Source: a virus (Duplodnaviria; Heunggongvirae; Uroviricota; Caudoviricetes). Taken from it: a stretch of DNA of 25,833 nt. The translations under genes and the position numbers were made by a program. Positions 1,773-21,538 of the stretch are shown here, one piece after another (positions within the stretch are counted from its first letter, which is position 1; the number at the start of each line of letters is the position of its first letter). The stretch lies in the IMG/VR virus record IMGVR_UViG_2563366846_000009; one strand, written 5' to 3'. Under the pieces are notes generated by a model. That model saw nothing but the letters and a program-made list of their open reading frames with translations. It made no database searches and was not told the origin of the DNA.

Positions 1773-2661
1773 TACGCCCACCTTCGCTGATGGTGAATGA
1801 CTCACAGCGCGCCGCCTGTATGTCGCTGATGGCCATATTCTGTGTGGGTTCGATTATCTCCACGCGTTGCACGCCGTGTACATGAAGTGCGGCAGCGATG
1901 GCGGACAACGCCACGTCCTGACCGATAAGCCCCTGTTCAGCCAGCCACTTCCTGAACGACGATTCCGCTGCGGCCAGAATAGGTTCGGATTCCGGACCGG
2001 GGTAAAAGTACAGTTTTGCATTCAGCCGCCATGTCACGATTCTGGCGCTCTGTACGGTCAGGCGGTCGGCCACCGGGCGGGTGTCCTCTGCATTCAGAAC
2101 GGAGCGAACGGTATTAAGCAGCGCCTCCGTTGCTGTGCCGTCGCCTTCAGTGGACAGAATGGAAACCGTCACACAGGCCGGAGACGGGCTGATGGCCCGC
2201 GCATCACGCACCAGACCGCTGGCGCTGCGTGCAAAATACTCGTATGCGCCTGACGGGCCTGCAACACTCAGGCCGTCATACGCCCGCTGCGCCCGCAGTC
2301 TCAGCGAGGTGTCGCTCTCCATCACCGCGTCGGTGGTATCCGTTGCCGGAGTGATAACCAGGCGCTTTGTGTTCATATTGCCCGCGAGGTTGTCCAGGTT
2401 TGTCCCTGAACCGTGGCTTAACATGCAGGCGCGTGCACCCTCGTTAACCCGCTGGCGTAACAGCATTTCACGAAACGACATGGTTTGAGCGATAACGTTA
2501 AGGGGGTCCGATTCCAGCTCCAGCGCGGCGGAAACGGCTTCACGCTGTTCGGCGGGATAAGCCGCAATCATCATGGCCTTTGTGTCAGCCAGAATTGCTT
2601 CAAAGTCAGGCTCCGCGATGATGGCGGGTTCCGGTAACTGGGAAAGGTCAACGGCGGGCAT
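1765..2661 (-). CDS. J: Baseplate assembly protein J
   Basis: 298-aa ORF at the expected position and size for P2 gpJ, short overlap with I. Confidence 0.85.
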   Translation of the reverse strand: MPAVDLSQLPEPAIIAEPDFEAILADTKAMMIAAYPAEQREAVSAALELESDPLNVIAQTMSFREMLLRQRVNEGARACMLSHGSGTNLDNLAGNMNTKRLVITPATDTTDAVMESDTSLRLRAQRAYDGLSVAGPSGAYEYFARSASGLVRDARAISPSPACVTVSILSTEGDGTATEALLNTVRSVLNAEDTRPVADRLTVQSARIVTWRLNAKLYFYPGPESEPILAAAESSFRKWLAEQGLIGQDVALSAIAAALHVHGVQRVEIIEPTQNMAISDIQAARCESFTISEGGRNE

Positions 2662-2664
2662 GAT

Positions 2665-3015
2665 TTACTCCCTCAGCGTGATGGTTAATTCAACATTCTG
2701 CATGGTCTGCATGACAGTGCCCGACAGCGTCACCCCGGCGCGGCCTCCCGCTTTCCAGACAACGTCGATGGCGTCCAGGGCAATGCGGGGTTCCCATCGT
2801 GTCAGCGCAATCACGGCAGCACTCATGCATTGCAGACGCGTGGTGTTATTCATGGGTTCGTCAATCAAATCAGGCACAAGGCTGCCATATTCCCGTCGCA
2901 TAACCCGGCTTGCCAGCGGGGTGGTCAGGATGTCCCTGACTGACTGTTTCAGGTGCTCCATATCGTTCAGGTTTCCCGTCCCGTCCGGGTTCATTCCTGT
3001 GTAGCGGGTTGTCAC
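2665..3015 (-). CDS. W: Baseplate wedge protein W (gp25-like)
   Basis: 116-aa ORF between J and V, matching P2 gpW in size and position. Confidence 0.8.
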   Translation of the reverse strand: MTTRYTGMNPDGTGNLNDMEHLKQSVRDILTTPLASRVMRREYGSLVPDLIDEPMNNTTRLQCMSAAVIALTRWEPRIALDAIDVVWKAGGRAGVTLSGTVMQTMQNVELTITLRE

Positions 3016-15603: not shown

Positions 15604-15756
15604 TATGTCGTTCTCCTTGTTTATGCTCTGAGGTGGAGATCAGGACGAACTCGCCCTGACGTTGTGTTATTCAGGAAATAACGCCCGGATATTTTCAGCC
15701 ATCTGACTGGTTATCTGTGCGGTTGGTGCTGGCTGTGACACGGGGCGTTCCGTCCT
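15493..15756. repeat. Copy A of the duplicated module (block G 15493..15603, block P 15601..15756)
   Basis: Counterpart of 14389..14653; includes the imperfect hairpin caggacgaactcgccctg just after the parR stop. Confidence 0.75.
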
Positions 15757-15978
15757 GTTTTGTGTCACTGATAACGCCTCATCGTCAGCCCATGCAGCCA
15801 GTCGGTAAGCCTCTGCCGGATTCATTTTCAGAAGTGCCAGCCCGGCCATAAAAGCCACGCGTTGACCGCTTTTGTGGGCTTCTGGTGTAAGGCTGTCCAG
15901 CCAGGCGCATGCTTCGCCTTCGTTCTTGACGGCGGCGGGCTTCAGATAGAAACTTATCCTCCTGGTTGATGTCGCCAT
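15667..15978 (-). CDS. parR: ParR-like partition adaptor
   Basis: ATG at 15978 sits 4 nt after the parM stop with AAGGAG upstream. The 103-aa product aligns by eye with plasmid R1 ParR (ISFYLKP..., AGLAL..., C-terminal NIRALFPE versus ILRSLFPKE). The track shows a longer ORF from 16113. Confidence 0.7.
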   Translation of the reverse strand: MATSTRRISFYLKPAAVKNEGEACAWLDSLTPEAHKSGQRVAFMAGLALLKMNPAEAYRLAAWADDEALSVTQNRTERPVSQPAPTAQITSQMAENIRALFPE

Positions 15979-15982
15979 TGAT

Positions 15983-16942
15983 TTACTCCTTGTCCATTGC
16001 GTGCAGCCCATTAACCAGAGCAAACTGTGGCACCCCGTCCGCAATGAAAGTCGCATTAACTCCGCAGGCTTCGCGGATAGCGGGTGCCACAATCTCCGCT
16101 CCTCCACCGACAACCATCACCCGCCCGTAACCCGAAAAAACCGCCAGCGCGCGGATCACGCGTTGCTTCAGTGTTTCTTCCTTTTCACGAATAACCGCCA
16201 TCAGGCTGGCGTAATGCGCGTCATTGTGGATGTGCTGGCGCAGCCAGGCTTCATCATGGCGATGTTCGATAATGGTATTGGCGATGTGGTGACTGGTGCG
16301 CATACCGTTAGTGGCCATCACCGACAGTACGGCATCGGCCATCAGAGAAACGCCTACGTGTGGATCGCAAAACACCTGGCTGATACCTGCCAGTTGCCCC
16401 TGAACCTTTGCCACATCCAGCGTGGTTCCGCCCAAATCCACAATCAGCAGGGATTCAAACGGACTCATGTCAGCCAGTGCCTTAAAGCCAGCCGGAATGG
16501 ATTCAGGCATAACCCGCACGTTACGGATAGTGAATGCTTCGCCGTTCTGGTACTTCACCGGGCGCATAACGTTCGCTTTTTTGCGGTTGATGTTGGCCAT
16601 GTCCGGCTGTGCGTTTGTGTCGAAATACTCGCTCAGTGGCAGGGTGACAACCACATCCACCTCCTGTGGCGTGATGCCTGATTTGACCAGCGCGTGATGA
16701 ATGGCAATGACATTCACATCACTGTACTGGTATTGCGTGTCGGTTGTCTGGACAAAGCGATCGCTGACCGGATCAAAACCATAGCGCACGCCATCAAGCA
16801 TGTAGTTCGCGGGCTGCGTGCCACCGAACGGCGCAGACCATTCCGACTTGAAGCTGTTCGGGCTGATAGCGTTGCGGCGTTCGCCGTTCTCAGTCCATGC
16901 CAGCTTGATGTTGGTGGAGCCGTCGTCGATACAAATTTTCAT
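15983..16942 (-). CDS. parM: ParM/StbA actin-like partition ATPase
   Basis: 319-aa protein with extensive colinear similarity to R1 ParM: IDDGSTNIKL, ISPNSFK, YSDVNV, HHAL, MPESIPAG, SLLI(V/I)DLGGTTLD, LSGIS, GVSL, GGGAE, LVNG. Confidence 0.9.
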   Translation of the reverse strand: MKICIDDGSTNIKLAWTENGERRNAISPNSFKSEWSAPFGGTQPANYMLDGVRYGFDPVSDRFVQTTDTQYQYSDVNVIAIHHALVKSGITPQEVDVVVTLPLSEYFDTNAQPDMANINRKKANVMRPVKYQNGEAFTIRNVRVMPESIPAGFKALADMSPFESLLIVDLGGTTLDVAKVQGQLAGISQVFCDPHVGVSLMADAVLSVMATNGMRTSHHIANTIIEHRHDEAWLRQHIHNDAHYASLMAVIREKEETLKQRVIRALAVFSGYGRVMVVGGGAEIVAPAIREACGVNATFIADGVPQFALVNGLHAMDKE

Positions 16943-16971: not shown

Positions 16972-17086
16972 CGTTTACGGGATTCTGAAATCCCGCTTTT
17001 GCCTGTTTTGTGCGCGCTTCATATATCGCGGCACGTTTTTTGCTCATTTACGGGATTTGTGAATCCCGTTTTTGTCTGTTTTTTGT
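16972..17086. repeat. Two tandem about 40-bp repeats, each a 7-bp-stem hairpin plus T-tract, between the parM start and the A stop
   Basis: R1 at 16972..17012 (cgggatt ctga aatcccg, then cttttgcctgttttgtg) and R2 at 17044..17086 (cgggatt tgtg aatcccg, then tttttgtctgttttttg). R2 lies inside the last about 22 codons of the A ORF. Confidence 0.6.
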
Positions 17087-19841
17087 TTCCACTGGTCAGG
17101 CCACCCCGCAGCAGGTCTGCTTTGCGGCGGGCGCGTTCAGTGGTTTCACTGATTCTCTGTGTGTGCTCTGCGTCGCGGATGGCGCGCAGCATGTCAGAAA
17201 GCACGGTAACGGGGGTTTTCATGGTGTTCTGGCCCTGCTGAAGTGTGGATGCCAGGCGTGCGGCGGCTTCAGGGGCTGATGCCCCCAGCTGTTCCAGATA
17301 GCTGGCGACCGGGTTATGGCGGATCTCCGTGCTGCTTACGCCGTGATTGCGGCTCAGGCGCTGCCAGAGCTGCGTGATTCGGCTGTCCTGGCGGGTATCC
17401 GGTTTGCGTACAATTTCAAATCCCTGCGGTGCAATGATGCTGCCGTCAACGTACAGACTGCCGCCCCGTAACAGGTGCTGCATCTGCTGTTCACCGATAT
17501 GCAGGCCGAGAGATTCAGCAGACTCCCGCCATTCTTTAGCGAGTAATTCGTGGTTATCAGGCAAAGTCCGCTGCTGTTTGCGGCTCTGTGTCCAGCTCTG
17601 CATTTCATCACTGCTGTTTTTTGCCTGTTTGTCACGAAGCGAACGCATCAGCGTCCGGCGTTCGTGCCGTTTCAGTGAGCGCATCCATTCGTTCACTTCA
17701 ACGCCGTCAGGGAGCTGCGGCCACGGTGCTGACCGTTCTTCCGGCTGTTCTGTCCCGTTGTTGTCCGTTTCCTGTACACGAGGACAGTTATTGCCACGAG
17801 TCCAAGGGGCGGCAGGGCCGCCCTGAAGGTCAAAACCATTTTCGCGGGCGCTGTCTTCCGCTTCCGGTTTACGTCTTACCAGCTTCCAGTTATCCGGATG
17901 CGTGCACACACGGGAGGATTCCCCGATGAGTGGTGACCAGATCCCGTAAATCTGTACGCTCTGTTCGCCGTAATCGTTCAGCTCATCTGCGAGGTCGTAG
18001 GCGGTGCGAATCAGGTAGTCTTTACGTGGAACAAGTACGCCACCCTGTTTTTCAATGTAGGTGGCAAAACACCCGGCATCAGCGGCAGCAAGAACCGCAT
18101 CCATTGCGTCATCCTTCAGCCGTTGCGGGCCTTCCGGGTTGCGTGCCATCTGGCTGGCAAGGCGGCGCAGTTCACGCCACACCTGACGGGAGGGGATGCC
18201 AAAGAACTGGAACTGGCGGACCCGGTGAAGGCGCGCCCAGCCGATGGCGCGCTCCACGCTCTCGGCCATTGATTTTCCGGTTTCGTGGTCAACGCGTGGT
18301 TTGCCCGTTTTCGGGTCGATGCCATCCACGGCGCGGCTGTCCAGGTTCTTTCCGATGTAGGTGGCGATGTAGCTGGTTGGCGTGCCTTTTGAGCCGTCGA
18401 CATACTCCGCCTTAAAGCGCGGAGTTATGTCATTGCCCAGCTCGTGGCGGTCTTCGCGAATGGCAATATCACGGGTGATGTCCACGATGCTGTCGATTTC
18501 TTCAGGATGTGCAAAGACCATCATGTGCCAGTGCACCGTGCCTTCATGATGAGGCTCCGCCGTGCGGATGCCATACCAGCGCAGGCCGTCGCGGTTCAGT
18601 TTTTTGCGGACCGCCGCAAAAAACGTGTTAACCAGGTAATCGCTGGAGTCGCGCATGGTGGCCCCGTTCCATTTGGGGTTCGGATGACCGTTCTCCGTTG
18701 TTGCGTGGTATTTTGACGGGCAGGTGACAGTCAGAAACACCGCTTTGTCACCACGGGCTTCGGCCAGAAGTTCCAGCCCCTTCATGGTGGCCATCATTTC
18801 TGCCTTACGGTGAACCGGGTTACTTACTCCCGCGTAATACACTGTCTCGAGATCAATCGTGAACCCGTCTTCATTTTCCAGCATGAAACTTTTCAGGAAA
18901 TCGCGTGTTTTCTCGCGCTGTGCGCGAAACTCGCTTAACGCGTCCTGGCTCAGATAGGGTGATGTTTTTCTGGAAACCAGACAGGCGGCGCGGAGTTGTT
19001 CTTCCCGCCACTCACAACGTAACAGCCACAGTTTTCGTTTCCACCATTCCGCACAGGTCAGGCGAAGGATTGCGCCCGGCAGCAGCTCCGTGTCCGGTTC
19101 GTTCCTCTGGTCTTTGTCTGTTGTCAGTGCGTCATAATGTGGAGGCATGGCGTGCAGGTGTAACGCCATGCGGGCCAGCATCTGATACGCCTTCAGGGTT
19201 ACATCCATGGTCAGCTCGCCATCGGTCGCGCCAAAGCCATCGCAGAGTTTTTCGAAGGTGCTGCTGAACATCGCCGCCGTCATGGTGGCCAGCGTCTGTA
19301 TCTGGTGCTTGTTGAGCTGCGGCAGGTAAAGCAAATCGTCCAGGCGTTCGCGTCCGGCAAGGGAGCGATAACCCGGTGTCAGCCAGCGGCTGTCGGTGCG
19401 GTCCAGACGTTCGAATATTTTGCGCAGGGTTCCGCGTGCATAGCGTTCCGCCTGCCAGCTCTTTTTGCCTTTCCGGCGATCGGCTTCCTGTTTTTTGCGC
19501 AGGAAGGAGAGGTGGCGAATAAGCGGATCGCGCAGATAGGACGGCAGCAGGCGCAGCGAGGCCATGGCTTCATCCACCGCACCGCGTGCCTGTTTTCTGG
19601 CGTCTCCTGCCAGTGTGATGGTTTTGTCCTGTTTTTCCTGTGCGTCCAGGCTTTTATTAATCAGGTTGCCCAGCGGCGTGGCGGAGAACGCCGCATCAGC
19701 CATTTCCTGGCGGCGCTCGTTCTCTGCCCGGTAGGCATCCAGCCAGGAGGAAAGCGCGGATTCAGGAGCGGGGATCCCCGTTCCTTCACGCCCGACTGCG
19801 TGGCGCGGTTGTTGCCAGTCCCTGATGTACTCTGCCGTCAT
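17019..19841 (-). CDS. A: Replication initiator A (rolling-circle, HUH-type)
   Basis: 940-aa ORF containing EPHHEGTVHWHMMVF and YIATYIGKN, matching conserved P2 gpA motifs. True start may be internal; the ORF is longer than P2 gpA. Confidence 0.85.
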   Translation of the reverse strand: MTAEYIRDWQQPRHAVGREGTGIPAPESALSSWLDAYRAENERRQEMADAAFSATPLGNLINKSLDAQEKQDKTITLAGDARKQARGAVDEAMASLRLLPSYLRDPLIRHLSFLRKKQEADRRKGKKSWQAERYARGTLRKIFERLDRTDSRWLTPGYRSLAGRERLDDLLYLPQLNKHQIQTLATMTAAMFSSTFEKLCDGFGATDGELTMDVTLKAYQMLARMALHLHAMPPHYDALTTDKDQRNEPDTELLPGAILRLTCAEWWKRKLWLLRCEWREEQLRAACLVSRKTSPYLSQDALSEFRAQREKTRDFLKSFMLENEDGFTIDLETVYYAGVSNPVHRKAEMMATMKGLELLAEARGDKAVFLTVTCPSKYHATTENGHPNPKWNGATMRDSSDYLVNTFFAAVRKKLNRDGLRWYGIRTAEPHHEGTVHWHMMVFAHPEEIDSIVDITRDIAIREDRHELGNDITPRFKAEYVDGSKGTPTSYIATYIGKNLDSRAVDGIDPKTGKPRVDHETGKSMAESVERAIGWARLHRVRQFQFFGIPSRQVWRELRRLASQMARNPEGPQRLKDDAMDAVLAAADAGCFATYIEKQGGVLVPRKDYLIRTAYDLADELNDYGEQSVQIYGIWSPLIGESSRVCTHPDNWKLVRRKPEAEDSARENGFDLQGGPAAPWTRGNNCPRVQETDNNGTEQPEERSAPWPQLPDGVEVNEWMRSLKRHERRTLMRSLRDKQAKNSSDEMQSWTQSRKQQRTLPDNHELLAKEWRESAESLGLHIGEQQMQHLLRGGSLYVDGSIIAPQGFEIVRKPDTRQDSRITQLWQRLSRNHGVSSTEIRHNPVASYLEQLGASAPEAAARLASTLQQGQNTMKTPVTVLSDMLRAIRDAEHTQRISETTERARRKADLLRGGLTSGNKKQTKTGFTNPVNEQKTCRDI

Positions 19842-19847
19842 AGTGAT

Positions 19848-20213
19848 TTACTTCGTCATGCCATTCAGGGTGTCGCGGCAGACTGTAGCCAGCCGCTGAA
19901 TTTCCAGCACGATGTCTTCTGTGTCGGCATGGCGATGTGTGATGCGGATGCTGTCGGCAATCACATCGACGATTGCAGAGGATGGGCGCTGGTAAATGCC
20001 AATAACGGACGGGGTACCACCTTCAATGCGGTAAAGCCTGTAATTTCCCTCGTGGCTGTCAATCATGTAGCGACCATCAATAACAATCTTTCCGTCAGCG
20101 AGCTGCGGTACAGGCAGGGATTTCAGGTACATGTCATAACGATCACGCACGCGAGCGGCAAGATCACGTTCTGTGTTGAGCAGGTATTCAAGAAAGTCGT
20201 TGGCGAGAATCAT
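19848..20213 (-). CDS. Hypothetical 121-aa early-operon protein directly upstream of A
   Basis: ORF ending 4 nt before the A start. No recognisable motif. Confidence 0.5.
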   Translation of the reverse strand: MILANDFLEYLLNTERDLAARVRDRYDMYLKSLPVPQLADGKIVIDGRYMIDSHEGNYRLYRIEGGTPSVIGIYQRPSSAIVDVIADSIRITHRHADTEDIVLEIQRLATVCRDTLNGMTK

Positions 20214-20285
20214 TGCGGCAATCCTCTTGTTACAGATGTGCGAAGGCCTCCCGCCGCAAGGTGCAGGAAAGGCCCGGAACAGGAA

Positions 20286-20516
20286 TTAATGGAGTTTGTT
20301 TTGCTGCTGGATGAGATCCTGAAGAGACAGGAGGTCTTCCGCCAGATAGCTGAATACAGCGGCGCAGTAGTCGGCTGAAATAGTGCTGTTGAGTCTGTGC
20401 AATGTGTTGGATTGCATGATAAAGGCGATGTGTGCAGCGCGGGTGAGTCTGCGATCGATTTCAGTCTGGATGTGACGACGTGCAGCGTATGCGCGCTGTT
20501 GTTTGCGGTTTGCCAT
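20286..20516 (-). CDS. Hypothetical 76-aa basic protein
   Basis: ORF with GAGG upstream of the ATG at 20516. Arg/Lys-rich N-terminus. Confidence 0.45.
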   Translation of the reverse strand: MANRKQQRAYAARRHIQTEIDRRLTRAAHIAFIMQSNTLHRLNSTISADYCAAVFSYLAEDLLSLQDLIQQQNKLH

Positions 20517-20692
20517 GGTGTGGCCTCGTACGTAGTGAGTTGTGATAACCCACCGCCGCGAGTTGAGAATCTCGGGGTGGCAGGACGTATGGGGTTCTCA
20601 ACACCGGCTACGCACGAATCCGGCCCGACTGAAGTCGGCCCCATACGCCCCGCCATAATTCTGATGCGAAAAAGACGTGGCGATACGGTACG

Positions 20693-20722
20693 CACAAAAA
20701 AACCGCTGGCGCGGTTGTGCGC
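20693..20722 (-). terminator. Candidate minus-strand intrinsic terminator inside a non-coding region
   Basis: Minus strand reads aaccgc gcca gcggtt followed by tttttttg. Stem is only 6 bp. Confidence 0.35.
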
Positions 20723-20959
20723 GTGCATAGTCAGCAGGTTGAGAATCCCGGCACCCGTTTTATGAGGTGCAGCGGAAATGTAACCTGACTGATTGCGGCA
20801 TGGCAAGCGGTTTTTTTGTGTGTGCATATACAGTTTTACTCCGTTTGATCCGGTTTTTTTTGCCTTCAACCGGAAAAGAAGGGTGTGTTACGCTTGAAGC
20901 ACCCGCTGTTCCGTCAAAAACAAGGCGGGTGCTTTGTTCAACACACGTAAGGAAAATAA

Positions 20960-21046
20960 ATGTCTGATAGCGATAAATTTCATGTACCACGACAACCCGC
21001 ACCCGCTCCGGAAAAGGGGCAGGGTTGGGATGATGAGGAGGACTAG
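20960..21046 (+). CDS. Small 28-aa acidic ORF upstream of the plus-strand membrane-protein gene
   Basis: ATG preceded by taaggaaaataa; translation MSDSDKFHVPRQPAPAPEKGQGWDDEED; stop 6 nt before the next ATG. Too short to tell whether it is coding. Confidence 0.3.
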   Translation: MSDSDKFHVPRQPAPAPEKGQGWDDEED

Positions 21047-21052
21047 ATAGCA

Positions 21053-21538
21053 ATGGGTAATCAGCCATCTGAAAATAATGCTGTGTGGCGACACAAGGTG
21101 ATGTATCGCCTCTGGAATAGTTACTGGCTTGAACATATTGTGGAGGTGTTTAATCGCCGCATGGATACGGTTATCAACGCTGTTATTCTTACGTTGGGAG
21201 CCACGGTGTTTGCTGACAGTAATTTCAGTTGGCTGCTGGGCGGTATAGTGGCTGTACTTAGCGGCTGCAATATCGCCTGGAAATTTGGTCAGCGTGCGGA
21301 GGCGGCGAAAGCACAAGCCCATCGTTACAGTGTGCTGATTTCCGAAAGCGGCAATCTCAGCACGGAAGATGTGCTTAACAGGCTTCTGGAAACAGAGAAG
21401 CAGGACTCCCCAGTGATTGAAGGCATGGATACAGTCGCACGAAACAAGGCGAGTGCATCTATGGGGCTTAAACATCGCGACCAACTTTCCCTCCCTCAAA
21501 AAATCATTGCGTTACTGACTGTCGGTAATCCCGATTAA
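21053..21538 (+). CDS. 161-aa two-transmembrane protein encoded against the early operon (candidate exclusion or abortive-infection effector)
   Basis: RBS gaggagga upstream. Two predicted TM helices (VINAVILTLGATVF and WLLGGIVAVLSGCNIAW) between an aromatic-rich N-terminal helix and a charged C-terminal region. SLATT-like architecture is a guess. Confidence 0.65.
   Translation: MGNQPSENNAVWRHKVMYRLWNSYWLEHIVEVFNRRMDTVINAVILTLGATVFADSNFSWLLGGIVAVLSGCNIAWKFGQRAEAAKAQAHRYSVLISESGNLSTEDVLNRLLETEKQDSPVIEGMDTVARNKASASMGLKHRDQLSLPQKIIALLTVGNPD

What the first reader, a model, noticed from the sequence alone, without database searches (positions are those of the whole stretch)
20517..20959. 440-bp non-coding stretch in the early operon with repeated GTTGAGAATC motif and an internal terminator-like hairpin
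GTTGAGAATC(T/C)CGG occurs at 20552 and 20738 with an inverted copy (gttctcaac) at 20584. A GC hairpin with tgaa loop lies near 20620. A minus-strand hairpin plus U-tract at 20693..20722 sits in the middle of what should be a continuous early transcript toward gene A. This could be a regulator binding site, an anti-terminated terminator or a small RNA locus.
Basis: seen in the sequence. Interest (0 to 1): 0.4.

Follow-up and report, generated by a model that had tools for sequence, protein, structure and literature searches.

The report
Phage antisense-RNA immunity switch (IsrK–C4)
The repeated motif and hairpins are the parts of a known kind of phage RNA switch, in which a small antisense RNA (C4/CI type) with its partner IsrK pairs with two matching sites on its own transcript to keep an anti-repressor gene, and probably the replication gene behind it, silent; here it sits in a P2-like prophage.

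Summary
GTTGAGAAYC occurs three times in the 25.8-kb window, all within 190 bp (0.09 expected).

On the minus strand the left 260 bp holds two Rfam families above their curated thresholds: IsrK (20770-20696, 58.4 bits) and C4 antisense RNA (20660-20573, 75.5 bits). The "tgaa hairpin" is C4 hairpin 1.

The repeats are RNA-RNA recognition sites, not protein operators. C4 carries b' (20602-20591) and a' (20617-20608). These are complementary to b1/a1 inside IsrK and to b2/a2 just upstream of the next gene, with a2 overlapping its Shine-Dalgarno.

In 58 distinct relatives the three copies co-vary: 6 b classes, 16 a classes and 28 combinations.

P4's CI/seqA region and the matching N15 region hit the same two families and are collinear with the window. 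The regulated 76-aa gene is a homologue of P4 epsilon, the helper derepression protein, and is followed by gpA.

This is a new member of a known kind. The right part (20849-20959) belongs to an unrelated plus-strand moron cassette.

The parts
20777..20817 (-). Promoter of the module: A-tract 20817-20811, -35 TTGCCA 20806-20801, 18-nt spacer, -10 TACATT 20782-20777. Predicted start near G20770, which is position 1 of IsrK.
   Evidence: Promoter scan. The -35 hexamer is invariant and -10 TACATT is 5 of 6 invariant, the sixth at 90% or more, in 58 relatives. The hexamers align with those upstream of the P4, N15 and Stx2 F004 IsrK copies. The start site is inferred, not measured.
20696..20770 (-). 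IsrK-family small RNA (the P4 'seqA' region): hairpin 1 at 20770-20751, hairpin 2 with the b1 loop, a linker carrying a1, and an intrinsic terminator.
   Evidence: Rfam RF01394, 58.4 bits against a gathering score of 50, full-length match. Helices are kept in relatives.
20738..20749 (-). b1: GGGAUUCUCAAC, the upstream copy of the b target in the loop of IsrK hairpin 2.
   Evidence: Pairs with b' with covariation in 4 of 12 pairs, up to 4 standard pair types per pair.
20721..20730 (-). a1: CUAUGCACGC, the upstream copy of the a target, 5 nt before the terminator stem.
   Evidence: Pairs with a'; 7 of 10 pairs show changes on both sides across relatives.
20696..20716 (-). Intrinsic terminator of IsrK: AACCGC-GCCA-GCGGUU plus U7.
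   Evidence: Terminator scan. The stem is 99.7% paired in 58 relatives.
20573..20660 (-).
   Evidence: Rfam RF01695, 75.5 bits against a gathering score of 45, full length. The minimum-energy fold equals the Rfam consensus at -47.4 kcal/mol, z = -4.2. The three C4 helices are 100% paired, with 4 pairs changed on both sides.
20608..20617 (-). a': UCGUGCGUAG in the loop of C4 hairpin 2; recognition element 1.
   Evidence: Complementary to a2 (96% of cells paired, 6 of 10 pairs changed on both sides) and to a1.
20591..20602 (-). b': GUUGAGAACCCC in the junction and 3' strand of the closing helix; recognition element 2.
   Evidence: An 8-bp core pairs with b1 and b2, and the central positions co-vary with 3-4 pair types.
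20562..20573 (-). b2: GAGAUUCUCAAC, the downstream copy of the b target.
20535..20553 (-). Spacer hairpin between b2 and a2 (GUGGGUU-AUCAC-AACUCAC). It would bring the two target halves together.
   Evidence: Read from the sequence. Relatives keep it with a G-C to A-U change (GAGUUUUC..AAAACUUAC). Its function is inferred.
20524..20535 (-). a2: CUACGUACGA (20535-20526), overlapping the Shine-Dalgarno GAGG (20527-20524) of the 76-aa gene.
   Evidence: The two C4 loop bases U and C pair with the G and A of the SD: C-G in all 58 sequences, U-A or U-G in 55 of 58 (pairs 221:314 and 222:313).
20286..20516 (-). Regulated gene: a 76-aa homologue of P4 epsilon, the helper derepression (anti-repressor) protein.
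   Evidence: BLASTP against P4 epsilon gives 33% identity over 51 aa, pairwise E = 7e-9. hhalign probability is 94%. All 24 family members hit Pfam PF25738 Derepression, best E = 4.6e-8; the window's own copy scores 22.3 bits, below the cut-off of 27. The mRNA is C-rich and G-poor, C/G = 1.95.
17019..20213 (-). Downstream genes likely to be co-regulated by polarity: a 121-aa ORF (20213-19848, unknown function) and replication gene A (19841-17019, 940 aa).
   Evidence: Pfam Phage_GPA, E = 8e-130. Same gene order in P88 and phiSM. Co-regulation is inferred.
20849..20959 (+). Not part of the RNA module: the leader of a plus-strand moron cassette, with hairpins at 20850-20873 and 20897-20934, then a 28-aa ORF (20960-21046) and a 161-aa gene (21053-21538).
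   Evidence: Homology with P88-type phages ends near 20828. The cassette recurs at about 80% identity in other E. coli P2-like prophages with different neighbours.

Best explanation
The left 260 bp of the interval (20817-20524, minus strand) is an IsrK-C4 antisense-RNA immunity cassette. It is of the kind known from satellite phage P4 (seqA / CI RNA / seqC), from P1/P7 (c4) and from N15, and here it sits in a P2-like (P88-type, Xuanwuvirus) prophage.

Shown by sequence and comparison:
- A conserved sigma-70-type promoter lies directly in front of IsrK.
- IsrK ends in an intrinsic terminator.
- Behind it lies a C4-family RNA whose two exposed elements, a' (hairpin loop) and b' (junction), are complementary to a1/b1 inside IsrK and to a2/b2 in front of the next gene.
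- a2 overlaps that gene's Shine-Dalgarno.
- All three copies co-vary across relatives.

Inferred by analogy with P1, P4 and N15:
- Read-through transcripts are processed to a stable C4 RNA.
- In a lysogen this RNA pairs in trans or in cis with b2 and a2 and blocks translation of the 76-aa epsilon-like anti-repressor gene.
- The untranslated, C-rich mRNA is then terminated by Rho, so orf121 and replication gene A stay off.
- Pairing with b1/a1 in nascent IsrK either strengthens termination at the IsrK terminator (autoregulation, as at P4 t1) or lets free IsrK titrate C4 (as proposed for Gifsy-1).
- The many a and b classes are immunity specificities that stop one phage's C4 from silencing another's cassette.
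For: Family assignment:
- Rfam C4 scores 75.5 bits (gathering 45) and isrK 58.4 bits (gathering 50), both full length and on the minus strand.
- P4's genetically defined CI/seqA region (C4 74.9, isrK 60.8 bits) and the matching N15 region score about the same in the same two families.
- The window is collinear with P4, N15 and Stx2 phage F004, from promoter to start codon.

Fold: the C4 minimum-energy fold equals the family consensus, z = -4.2. The Rfam helices of C4 and IsrK together are 96.2% paired, with 5 pairs changed on both sides, in 58 distinct relatives.

Pairing with targets:
- a':a2 plus b':b2: 85.6% of cells paired against 65.1% when shuffled, 231 cells changed on both sides against 67.6, covariation score 0.494 against 0.106, and at most 0.156 when the partners are slid.
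- a':a1 plus b':b1: 86.8% paired, 234 cells, score 0.531.

Specificity classes:
- There are 6 b classes, 16 a classes and 28 combinations.
- Cognate duplexes are -28 and -35 kcal/mol; pairs that share neither class are -17.5 and -20.6.
- Recognition elements hold 49% of the column entropy in 17% of the columns.

Other support:
- Motif counts: 3 against 0.09 expected.
- Promoter and terminator.
- Epsilon homology.
- C/G = 1.95 in the epsilon-like mRNA, against 0.89-1.24 in neighbouring genes.
- Literature: Barquist et al. [quoted passage not shown] Hershko-Shalev et al. 2016 (PMC4825925) show IsrK read-through, a processed ~80-nt RNA downstream and control of an anti-repressor in Gifsy-1.
Against: - There are no expression data. 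The transcription start, the processing, the stability of the C4 RNA, the repression of the epsilon-like gene and the Rho step are all inferred.
- The b2 core lies 46 nt upstream of the start codon and does not touch the SD; only a2 does.
- An energy scan of the whole window with the a'-b' probe does not single out the b2-a2 site. Several unrelated GC-rich windows score as well as IsrK, so the specificity argument rests on covariation and not on energy.
- A few natural relatives carry mismatched parts: L077 has an IsrK of another class, and L019 has an a' that matches neither a1 nor a2. Full three-way matching is therefore not obligatory for persistence as a prophage.
- The window's own epsilon-like protein is below Pfam's cut-off (22.3 against 27 bits).
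- The role of the b1/a1 copy is unresolved even in the model systems.
Confidence: 0.85

Rival explanations
1. Gifsy-1-type positive control. The read-through transcript folds into an inactive structure in which IsrK's b1/a1 pair in cis with the C4 segment. Short IsrK acting in trans opens it and activates translation of the downstream anti-repressor. On this view the C4 segment is mainly a cis structure, or a small ORF (orf45), and not a trans repressor.
For: The full-length fold of 20775-20500 pairs b1 with b' in cis. The IsrK:C4 duplex is the strongest predicted one, at -34.8 kcal/mol. The mechanism was shown experimentally for the homologous Gifsy-1 locus (PMC4825925).
Against: Cis pairing between b1/a1 and C4 does not explain why b2 and a2 co-vary with C4 as tightly as b1 and a1 do. 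The orf45 arrangement is absent: no stop overlaps the start codon (CCAUGGCA), the frame runs on for about 148 codons, and 6 of 58 relatives truncate it at different places. No Shine-Dalgarno precedes the AUG at 20656. This rival is not exclusive of the main explanation and could describe the induction step.
Confidence: 0.3
2. The repeats are operators for a DNA-binding protein such as C, Cox or the MarR-like early protein, and the hairpins are incidental.
For: Repeated 10-14-bp motifs in direct and inverted orientation near a promoter are typical of operators.
Against: None of the three copies overlaps the promoter; they lie 21, 168 and 197 bp downstream of the predicted start. Across relatives the copies change together so as to keep Watson-Crick or G-U complementarity with an element inside a structured RNA, and G-U pairs are tolerated, which has meaning only in RNA. 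Six b classes occur next to 63-100% identical neighbouring proteins. Two Rfam families account for every feature.
Confidence: 0.03
3. The stretch is protein-coding: the mechanical 219-aa ORF 20210-20869 (minus strand), or the 62-aa plus-strand ORF annotated as gp13 in P88.
For: The minus-strand frame is open in 57 of 58 relatives over the 317-nt block, and for about 148 codons from the AUG at 20656 in most of them. P88's record annotates a plus-strand hypothetical protein here.
Against: No Pfam, NCBIfam or PHROG family covers it. The variation is paired RNA covariation, not a codon pattern. Relatives carry 1- and 2-nt indels in the block. Over the overlapped 76-aa gene, 18% of synonymous-codon permutations also leave this frame open. 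The predicted product is low-complexity.
Confidence: 0.02
4. A plain operon boundary: an ordinary terminator ends an upstream transcript and an ordinary promoter restarts transcription toward gene A, with no RNA regulator.
For: A promoter-like site and a terminator-like site are both present.
Against: Their order is wrong for this reading, because the promoter lies upstream of the terminator on the same strand. It leaves unexplained the C4 match, the 17-bp helix and the three-way covariation.
Confidence: 0.03

Closest known systems
Satellite phage P4 immunity region (PLE - seqA - cI/CI RNA - seqC - ... - epsilon - ... - alpha)
   Same: The same two Rfam families occur in the same order with near-identical scores (P4: C4 74.9, isrK 60.8 bits). 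The layout is collinear from promoter to first start codon, including the a-type and b-type triplets. An epsilon-family gene lies downstream, followed by the replication gene.
   Different: The host element is a complete P2-like phage with portal, Cox, C, integrase and gpA, not a satellite. The replication gene is P2-type gpA, not the alpha primase-helicase. P4 has about 100 extra nt between IsrK and CI, and other ORFs (kil/eta region) between seqC and epsilon. The b element has the opposite polarity: P4 CI carries UUCUCAC, whereas the window's C4 carries GUUGAGAA.
P1/P7 immI: c4 antisense RNA - icd - ant
   Same: C4 family RNA (the founding member of RF01695). It has two recognition elements, a' and b', with target sets both upstream (a1, b1) and downstream (a2, b2) on the same transcript. 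The downstream set is at the ribosome-binding site of the first ORF, and the regulated product is an anti-repressor (from my own knowledge of Citron & Schuster 1990/1992, whose papers are not held in the library; summarised in PMC8546580).
   Different: The regulated genes are not homologous: icd/ant in P1, epsilon-like here.
Gifsy-1 isrK - orf45 (STnc1160) - anrP (Salmonella)
   Same: IsrK has its own promoter and a leaky terminator. A processed ~80-nt RNA lies downstream and shares complementarity with IsrK, followed by an anti-repressor gene (PMC4825925).
   Different: There is no orf45 with a stop overlapping the anti-repressor start. The anti-repressor belongs to a different family. The published Gifsy-1 mechanism is activation by IsrK, not repression by C4.
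N15 anti-immunity region and the IsrK-C4 pairs of Stx-converting lambdoid phages
   Same: Both Rfam families occur in tandem. The Stx2 F004 record already annotates them. N15 even shares the window's b class, UUGAGAAC / UUCUCAAC.
   Different: The phage types and the downstream genes differ, and so does the a class.

Membership tests
Rfam RF01695 C4 antisense RNA (P1/P7 c4, P4 CI RNA) | Covariance-model score at or above the curated gathering score (45 bits), full-length match | tested here: met
   75.5 bits, model positions 1-87 of 87, at 20573-20660 on the minus strand. P4's CI region gives 74.9 bits with the same tool.
Rfam RF01695 C4 antisense RNA (P1/P7 c4, P4 CI RNA) | Long closing helix enclosing two hairpins, supported by comparison of relatives | tested here: met
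   The minimum-energy fold equals the consensus, z = -4.2. The 17-bp helix and both hairpins are 100% paired in 58 relatives, with 4 pairs changed on both sides.
Rfam RF01695 C4 antisense RNA (P1/P7 c4, P4 CI RNA) | Exposed recognition sequences complementary to target copies upstream and downstream on the same transcript | tested here: met
   a' and b' pair with a2/b2 and with a1/b1. There are 231 and 234 cells changed on both sides, and 0 of 500 shuffles reach the observed covariation score.
Rfam RF01695 C4 antisense RNA (P1/P7 c4, P4 CI RNA) | Downstream target overlaps the ribosome-binding site of the first regulated ORF | tested here: met
   a2 (20535-20526) overlaps the SD GAGG (20527-20524). 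C4's C pairs with the SD G in 58 of 58 sequences and its U with the SD A in 55 of 58.
Rfam RF01695 C4 antisense RNA (P1/P7 c4, P4 CI RNA) | Processed from a longer precursor (RNase P) into a stable RNA of about 77 nt that confers immunity | not testable with these tools
   Needs Northern blots, 5'/3' end mapping and genetics.
Rfam RF01394 IsrK (P4 seqA region) | Covariance-model score at or above the gathering score (50 bits) | tested here: met
   58.4 bits, model positions 1-77 of 77, at 20696-20770 on the minus strand. P4 scores 60.8 and N15 62.4 bits.
Rfam RF01394 IsrK (P4 seqA region) | Own promoter directly upstream and an intrinsic terminator at the 3' end | tested here: met
   TTGCCA-18-TACATT ends 7 nt before position 1, and the terminator is at 20716-20701 plus U7. 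Both are conserved in relatives. This is a sequence-level test only.
Rfam RF01394 IsrK (P4 seqA region) | Lies immediately upstream of a C4-family RNA and carries sequence complementary to it | tested here: met
   A 35-nt gap separates it from C4. b1 and a1 pair with b' and a' with covariation.
Rfam RF01394 IsrK (P4 seqA region) | Hfq binding; accumulation as a short RNA alongside a read-through form | not testable with these tools
   Experimental property.
P4-type immunity/derepression operon | Order: promoter - seqA - cI - seqC - epsilon - replication gene | tested here: met
   Collinear alignment with P4. Epsilon homologue. A replication gene lies downstream.
P4-type immunity/derepression operon | Element is a P4-like satellite with an alpha primase-helicase and no structural genes | tested here: not met
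   The replication gene is P2-type gpA (Pfam Phage_GPA, E = 8e-130). The closest phages are complete Peduoviridae, P88 and phiSM. The cassette works like P4's, but the element is not a P4-like satellite.
P4-type immunity/derepression operon | CI-dependent premature termination (t1, timm; Rho) | not testable with these tools
   Only indirect support: the first ORF's mRNA has C/G = 1.95.
Gifsy-1 isrK-orf45-anrP | Small ORF over the C4 segment whose stop overlaps the anti-repressor start (AUGA), allowing translational coupling | tested here: not met
   The frame from AUG 20656 runs past the start codon (CCAUGGCA) for about 148 codons, and is truncated at various places in 6 of 58 relatives.
Pfam PF25738 Derepression (P4 epsilon) family, for the regulated gene | Profile match at or above the gathering score (27 bits) | tested here: inconclusive
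   The window's copy scores 22.3 bits, E = 1.1e-4. All 24 relatives match, best E = 4.6e-8. hhalign against P4 epsilon gives 94% probability.

The most novel reading that the evidence does not exclude
P2-like helper-type phages of the P88 group carry the same RNA-gated epsilon anti-repressor cassette as their satellite P4, placed directly in front of replication gene A. Its two-site recognition code (at least 6 b x 16 a classes, 28 combinations seen) would then act as a combinatorial immunity barcode. The barcode would decide which co-resident P2-like prophages, P4-like satellites and even unrelated phages (N15 shares the b class) can silence or derepress one another. This would add an RNA layer of helper-satellite and prophage-prophage cross-talk on top of the C/Cox switch, and it could explain why P88 is mitomycin-inducible.
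Probability: 0.3. Interest if true: 0.6.

Novelty: new member of a known kind. Interest (0 to 1): 0.3.

Why it matters
For annotation, a "hypothetical" intergenic stretch in P88-type prophages is in fact a two-RNA regulatory cassette. This stretch, or parts of it, matches in over a thousand complete E. coli genomes. The RefSeq record with the same arrangement and the P88 and phiSM records annotate no RNA here, and P88 even carries a probably spurious ORF on top of it.

For biology, an RNA-based second immunity and an epsilon-type anti-repressor sit immediately upstream of replication gene A in a P2-like phage. The lysis-lysogeny decision in this group is therefore probably not governed by C/Cox alone.

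The natural collection of 28 a/b combinations on a near-identical scaffold is a ready-made set of orthogonal antisense/target pairs. It is also a clean case of diversifying selection on RNA-RNA specificity.

None of this is a new principle. The mechanism was worked out in P1, P4 and N15, and Barquist et al. 2013 named the IsrK/C4 pairing.

Tried and rejected
- Energy scan of the whole window with the a'-b' segment of C4. It is not discriminating: several unrelated GC-rich windows score like IsrK, and the b2-a2 site is penalised by its internal hairpin. It was dropped as evidence.
- An 11-nt copy of a1 inside gpA (19433-19443) was considered as a third target, like the distant target proposed for APSE phages. 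It was rejected: cognate 8-mers downstream occur in 7 of 58 relatives, against 10.7% for non-cognate classes.
- Coding readings (the 219-aa ORF and an orf45-like ORF) were rejected. 18% of synonymous permutations keep the frame open, relatives truncate it, and there is no SD.
- A LexA box upstream of the promoter: CTGTATATGCACACAC at 20818-20833 has one mismatch, 12% of shuffles give such a match, and it is absent from most relatives. It is not claimed.
- orf121 against P4 ORF151 and ORF106: no similarity.
- PADLOC and NCBIfam gave nothing for the neighbouring small proteins.
- The primary P1 and P4 papers (PMC312442, PMC176756) are not held in the library. Details of a'/b', RNase P processing, and t1 and timm rest on my own knowledge.
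- Literature searches for the cassette in P2-like or Xuanwuvirus phages found no description. That is absence within this library only.
Full report
**Context**

The window is a P2-like prophage of the P88 / Xuanwuvirus type.
- It carries integrase, an HTH repressor, Cox, DUF4761/DUF4754 early genes, gpA (940 aa) and ParM/ParR-like genes. The early genes are on the minus strand.
- The nearest phages are Citrobacter phage phiSM (92%) and Escherichia phage P88 (87%).
- The interval 20517-20959 lies between the ATG of a minus-strand 76-aa gene (20516) and the ATG of a plus-strand 28-aa ORF (20960).

**Check of the observation**

The motif is real but two coordinates are off.
- GTTGAGAAYC matches three times in the whole window, all within 190 bp, against 0.09 expected. 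None of 100 shuffles reached three.
- The tgaa-loop hairpin (about 20621-20643) and the minus-strand hairpin with a U-tract (20716-20701, U7 to 20696) are both present.

**What it is**

A scan of the window against Rfam gives exactly two matches above the curated thresholds, adjacent and both on the minus strand:
- isrK (RF01394) at 20770-20696, 58.4 bits against a gathering score of 50.
- C4 antisense RNA (RF01695) at 20660-20573, 75.5 bits against a gathering score of 45.

- The "internal terminator" is the intrinsic terminator of IsrK.
- The "tgaa hairpin" is C4 hairpin 1.
- The inverted motif copy is the single-stranded junction of C4.
- The two direct copies lie one in the loop of IsrK hairpin 2 and one just downstream of C4.

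A promoter-like site (TTGCCA, 18 nt, TACATT; 20806-20777) ends seven bases before position 1 of IsrK. It is preceded by an A-tract. The -35 hexamer is invariant and the -10 nearly so in all relatives.

The C4 segment folds on its own into the family consensus at -47.4 kcal/mol, z = -4.2.

**Recognition elements**

The six elements are:

| Element | Sequence | Coordinates | Location |
|---|---|---|---|
| a' | UCGUGCGUAG | 20617-20608 | loop of C4 hairpin 2 |
| b' | GUUGAGAACCCC | 20602-20591 | C4 junction |
| b1 | GGGAUUCUCAAC | 20749-20738 | IsrK hairpin 2 loop |
| a1 | CUAUGCACGC | 20730-20721 | IsrK linker |
| b2 | GAGAUUCUCAAC | 20573-20562 | downstream of C4 |
| a2 | CUACGUACGA | 20535-20526 | before the 76-aa gene |

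- IsrK carries b1 and a1. The transcript downstream of C4 carries b2, then a small hairpin (20553-20535), then a2.
- a2 runs into the Shine-Dalgarno GAGG (20527-20524) of the 76-aa gene.
- The orientation is consistent with antiparallel pairing of a'-b' with b-a.

**Comparative test**

I collected 84 related loci.
- All keep the ~320-nt block at 81-89% identity. The neighbouring protein ranges from 63 to 100% identity to the window's.
- The loci give 58 distinct versions, which were aligned.

The recognition elements are the variable part:
- They hold 49% of the column entropy in 17% of the columns.
- They change together: six b classes and sixteen a classes, each written three times per locus, twice as target and once as complement.

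Formal pair counts:

| Pairing | Cells paired | Cells changed on both sides | Covariation score |
|---|---|---|---|
| a':a2 + b':b2 | 85.6% (65.1% shuffled) | 231 (67.6 shuffled) | 0.494 (0.106 shuffled; ≤0.156 slid) |
| a':a1 + b':b1 | 86.8% | 234 | 0.531 |

- Individual pairs show up to five standard pair types.
- The internal helices of C4 and IsrK are 96.2% paired, with five pairs changed on both sides.
- Cognate duplex energies are about -28 (target) and -35 (IsrK) kcal/mol. Pairs that share neither class score -17.5 and -20.6.
- The a and b classes assort freely, with 28 combinations seen.

This is the signature of an antisense RNA with heteroimmune specificity classes. It rules out protein operators, for which G-U tolerance and complementarity to a structured RNA would be meaningless.

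**Relation to known systems**

With the same tool, three other phages give the same two families in the same order:

| Phage | C4 (bits) | isrK (bits) |
|---|---|---|
| P4 (genetically defined CI RNA and seqA region) | 74.9 | 60.8 |
| N15 | 78.8 | 62.4 |
| Stx2 phage F004 (record already annotates both) | 78.9 | 61.7 |

- A four-way alignment is collinear from the promoter hexamers to the start codon, with a- and b-type triplets in each.
- Barquist et al. [quoted passage not shown]
- Hershko-Shalev et al. 2016 showed the following for Gifsy-1: IsrK transcripts partly read through their terminator, a processed ~80-nt RNA (STnc1160) lies downstream and is complementary to IsrK, and the locus controls an anti-repressor (PMC4825925).

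**The regulated gene**

The 76-aa product is a homologue of P4 epsilon, annotated in the P4 record as the helper derepression protein.
- BLASTP gives 33% identity over 51 residues, pairwise E = 7e-9.
- hhalign probability is 94%.
- All 24 family members tested hit Pfam PF25738, best E = 4.6e-8. The window's own copy is below the cut-off, at 22.3 against 27 bits.

Behind it come a 121-aa ORF of unknown function and replication gene A.

The order promoter - IsrK - C4 - target - epsilon - replication gene parallels the P4 left operon. The element itself is a complete P2-like phage with P2-type gpA, not a satellite.

**Likely mechanism**

Shown here:
- The family assignments and the promoter and terminator at sequence level.
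- The fold and the two-site complementarity to two target sets, with covariation.
- The overlap of a2 with the SD.
- The epsilon homology.

Inferred by analogy with P1 (c4-icd-ant), P4 (CI, seqA/seqC, t1, timm) and N15; these details rest on my own knowledge, because the primary papers are not held:
- The promoter is constitutive in the lysogen.
- Most transcripts stop at the IsrK terminator. Read-through ones are processed to a stable C4 RNA.
- C4 pairs with b2 and a2 and blocks initiation at the 76-aa gene.
- The naked mRNA is unusually C-rich and G-poor, with C/G = 1.95 against 0.89-1.24 in neighbouring genes. It is terminated by Rho, so the epsilon-like protein, orf121 and gpA stay off.

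The b1/a1 copy either makes the IsrK terminator C4-dependent (autoregulation, as reported for P4 t1) or lets free IsrK titrate C4 and switch the system on (the Gifsy-1 view). The predicted cis pairing of b1 with b' in the full-length fold is compatible with both.

**Rejected readings**

- Coding: the frame is open in most relatives, but it is also open in 18% of synonymous permutations. It is truncated at different places in six relatives and has no SD.
- A third target in gpA: there is no cognate enrichment.
- A LexA box: it has one mismatch, 12% of shuffles match, and it is not conserved.
- Plain terminator plus promoter: the order is wrong.

**The rest of the interval**

Homology with P88-type phages stops near 20828.
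- From about 20849 the sequence belongs to a plus-strand cassette: two hairpins, a 28-aa ORF and a 161-aa protein with a hydrophobic, likely membrane-spanning stretch (PHROG 6315).
- The cassette recurs at about 80% identity in other E. coli P2-like prophages with other neighbours.
- It is a moron and not part of the RNA switch.

**Verdict**

- The element is a bona fide member of the C4 and IsrK families, and it works like the P4/P1/N15 RNA immunity systems.
- I found no description of it in P2-like phages in the searchable literature, and the closest records do not annotate it.
- I therefore rate it a new member of a known kind, of modest interest.
- The most interesting by-product is the natural set of 28 a/b specificity combinations.

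Noticed in passing
window 20849-21538 (+): A moron cassette in the opposite orientation, between the early genes and the IsrK promoter. It has two hairpins (20850-20873; a perfect 10-bp stem at 20897-20934 with one compensatory change in a relative), a conserved 28-aa ORF (20960-21046) with a strong SD, and a 161-aa protein with a hydrophobic, likely membrane-spanning stretch (PHROG 6315, unknown function). The same cassette occurs at about 80% identity in other E. coli P2-like prophages with different neighbours.
   Followed up: partly
window 20818-20833 (-): CTGTATATGCACACAC, one mismatch from a LexA-box core (CTGT-N8-ACAG), just upstream of the A-tract of the IsrK promoter. 12% of shuffles give such a match, and most relatives lack it.
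   Followed up: partly
window 20210-20869 (-): A 219-aa mechanical ORF in an alternative frame runs through IsrK, C4 and the whole 76-aa gene, and stays open for about 148 codons in most relatives. Synonymous-codon permutation leaves it open 18% of the time, so this is not significant.
   Followed up: yes
window 19433-19443 (-), inside gpA: An 11-nt exact copy of the a1 element (CUAUGCACGCG). Relatives show no enrichment of cognate copies downstream (7 of 58, against 10.7% for non-cognate classes), so it is probably chance.
   Followed up: yes
L077, L019, L003, L035 (upstream blocks, about 2687-3003): Natural chimeras. L077 has an IsrK (b1, a1) of a different class from its C4 and downstream targets. 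L019 has an a' that matches neither its a1 nor its a2. L003 and L035 have altered b1. Recombination breakpoints therefore fall between the parts, and these prophages may be deregulated or defective.
   Followed up: no
window 15667-16942 (-): ParM (StbA_N/ParM_N) and a plasmid-stability ParR-like gene lie directly downstream of gpA, as in P88 and phiSM. This is a plasmid-partition module in an integrating P2-like phage.
   Followed up: no
L001 6478-6666 (+) (phage P88 gp13): The P88 record annotates a 62-aa hypothetical protein on the strand opposite to, and on top of, the C4/IsrK region. It is probably a spurious call. The RefSeq E. coli record with the window's arrangement annotates no RNA here.
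   Followed up: partly
L088 (N15) 2440-2760 (-): N15 shares the window's b class (b' GUGUUGAGAACCC, b2 GAUUCUCAAC) but has a different a class. P4's b element has the opposite polarity: its CI RNA carries UUCUCAC. Cross-talk between unrelated phages through one half-site is conceivable.
   Followed up: no
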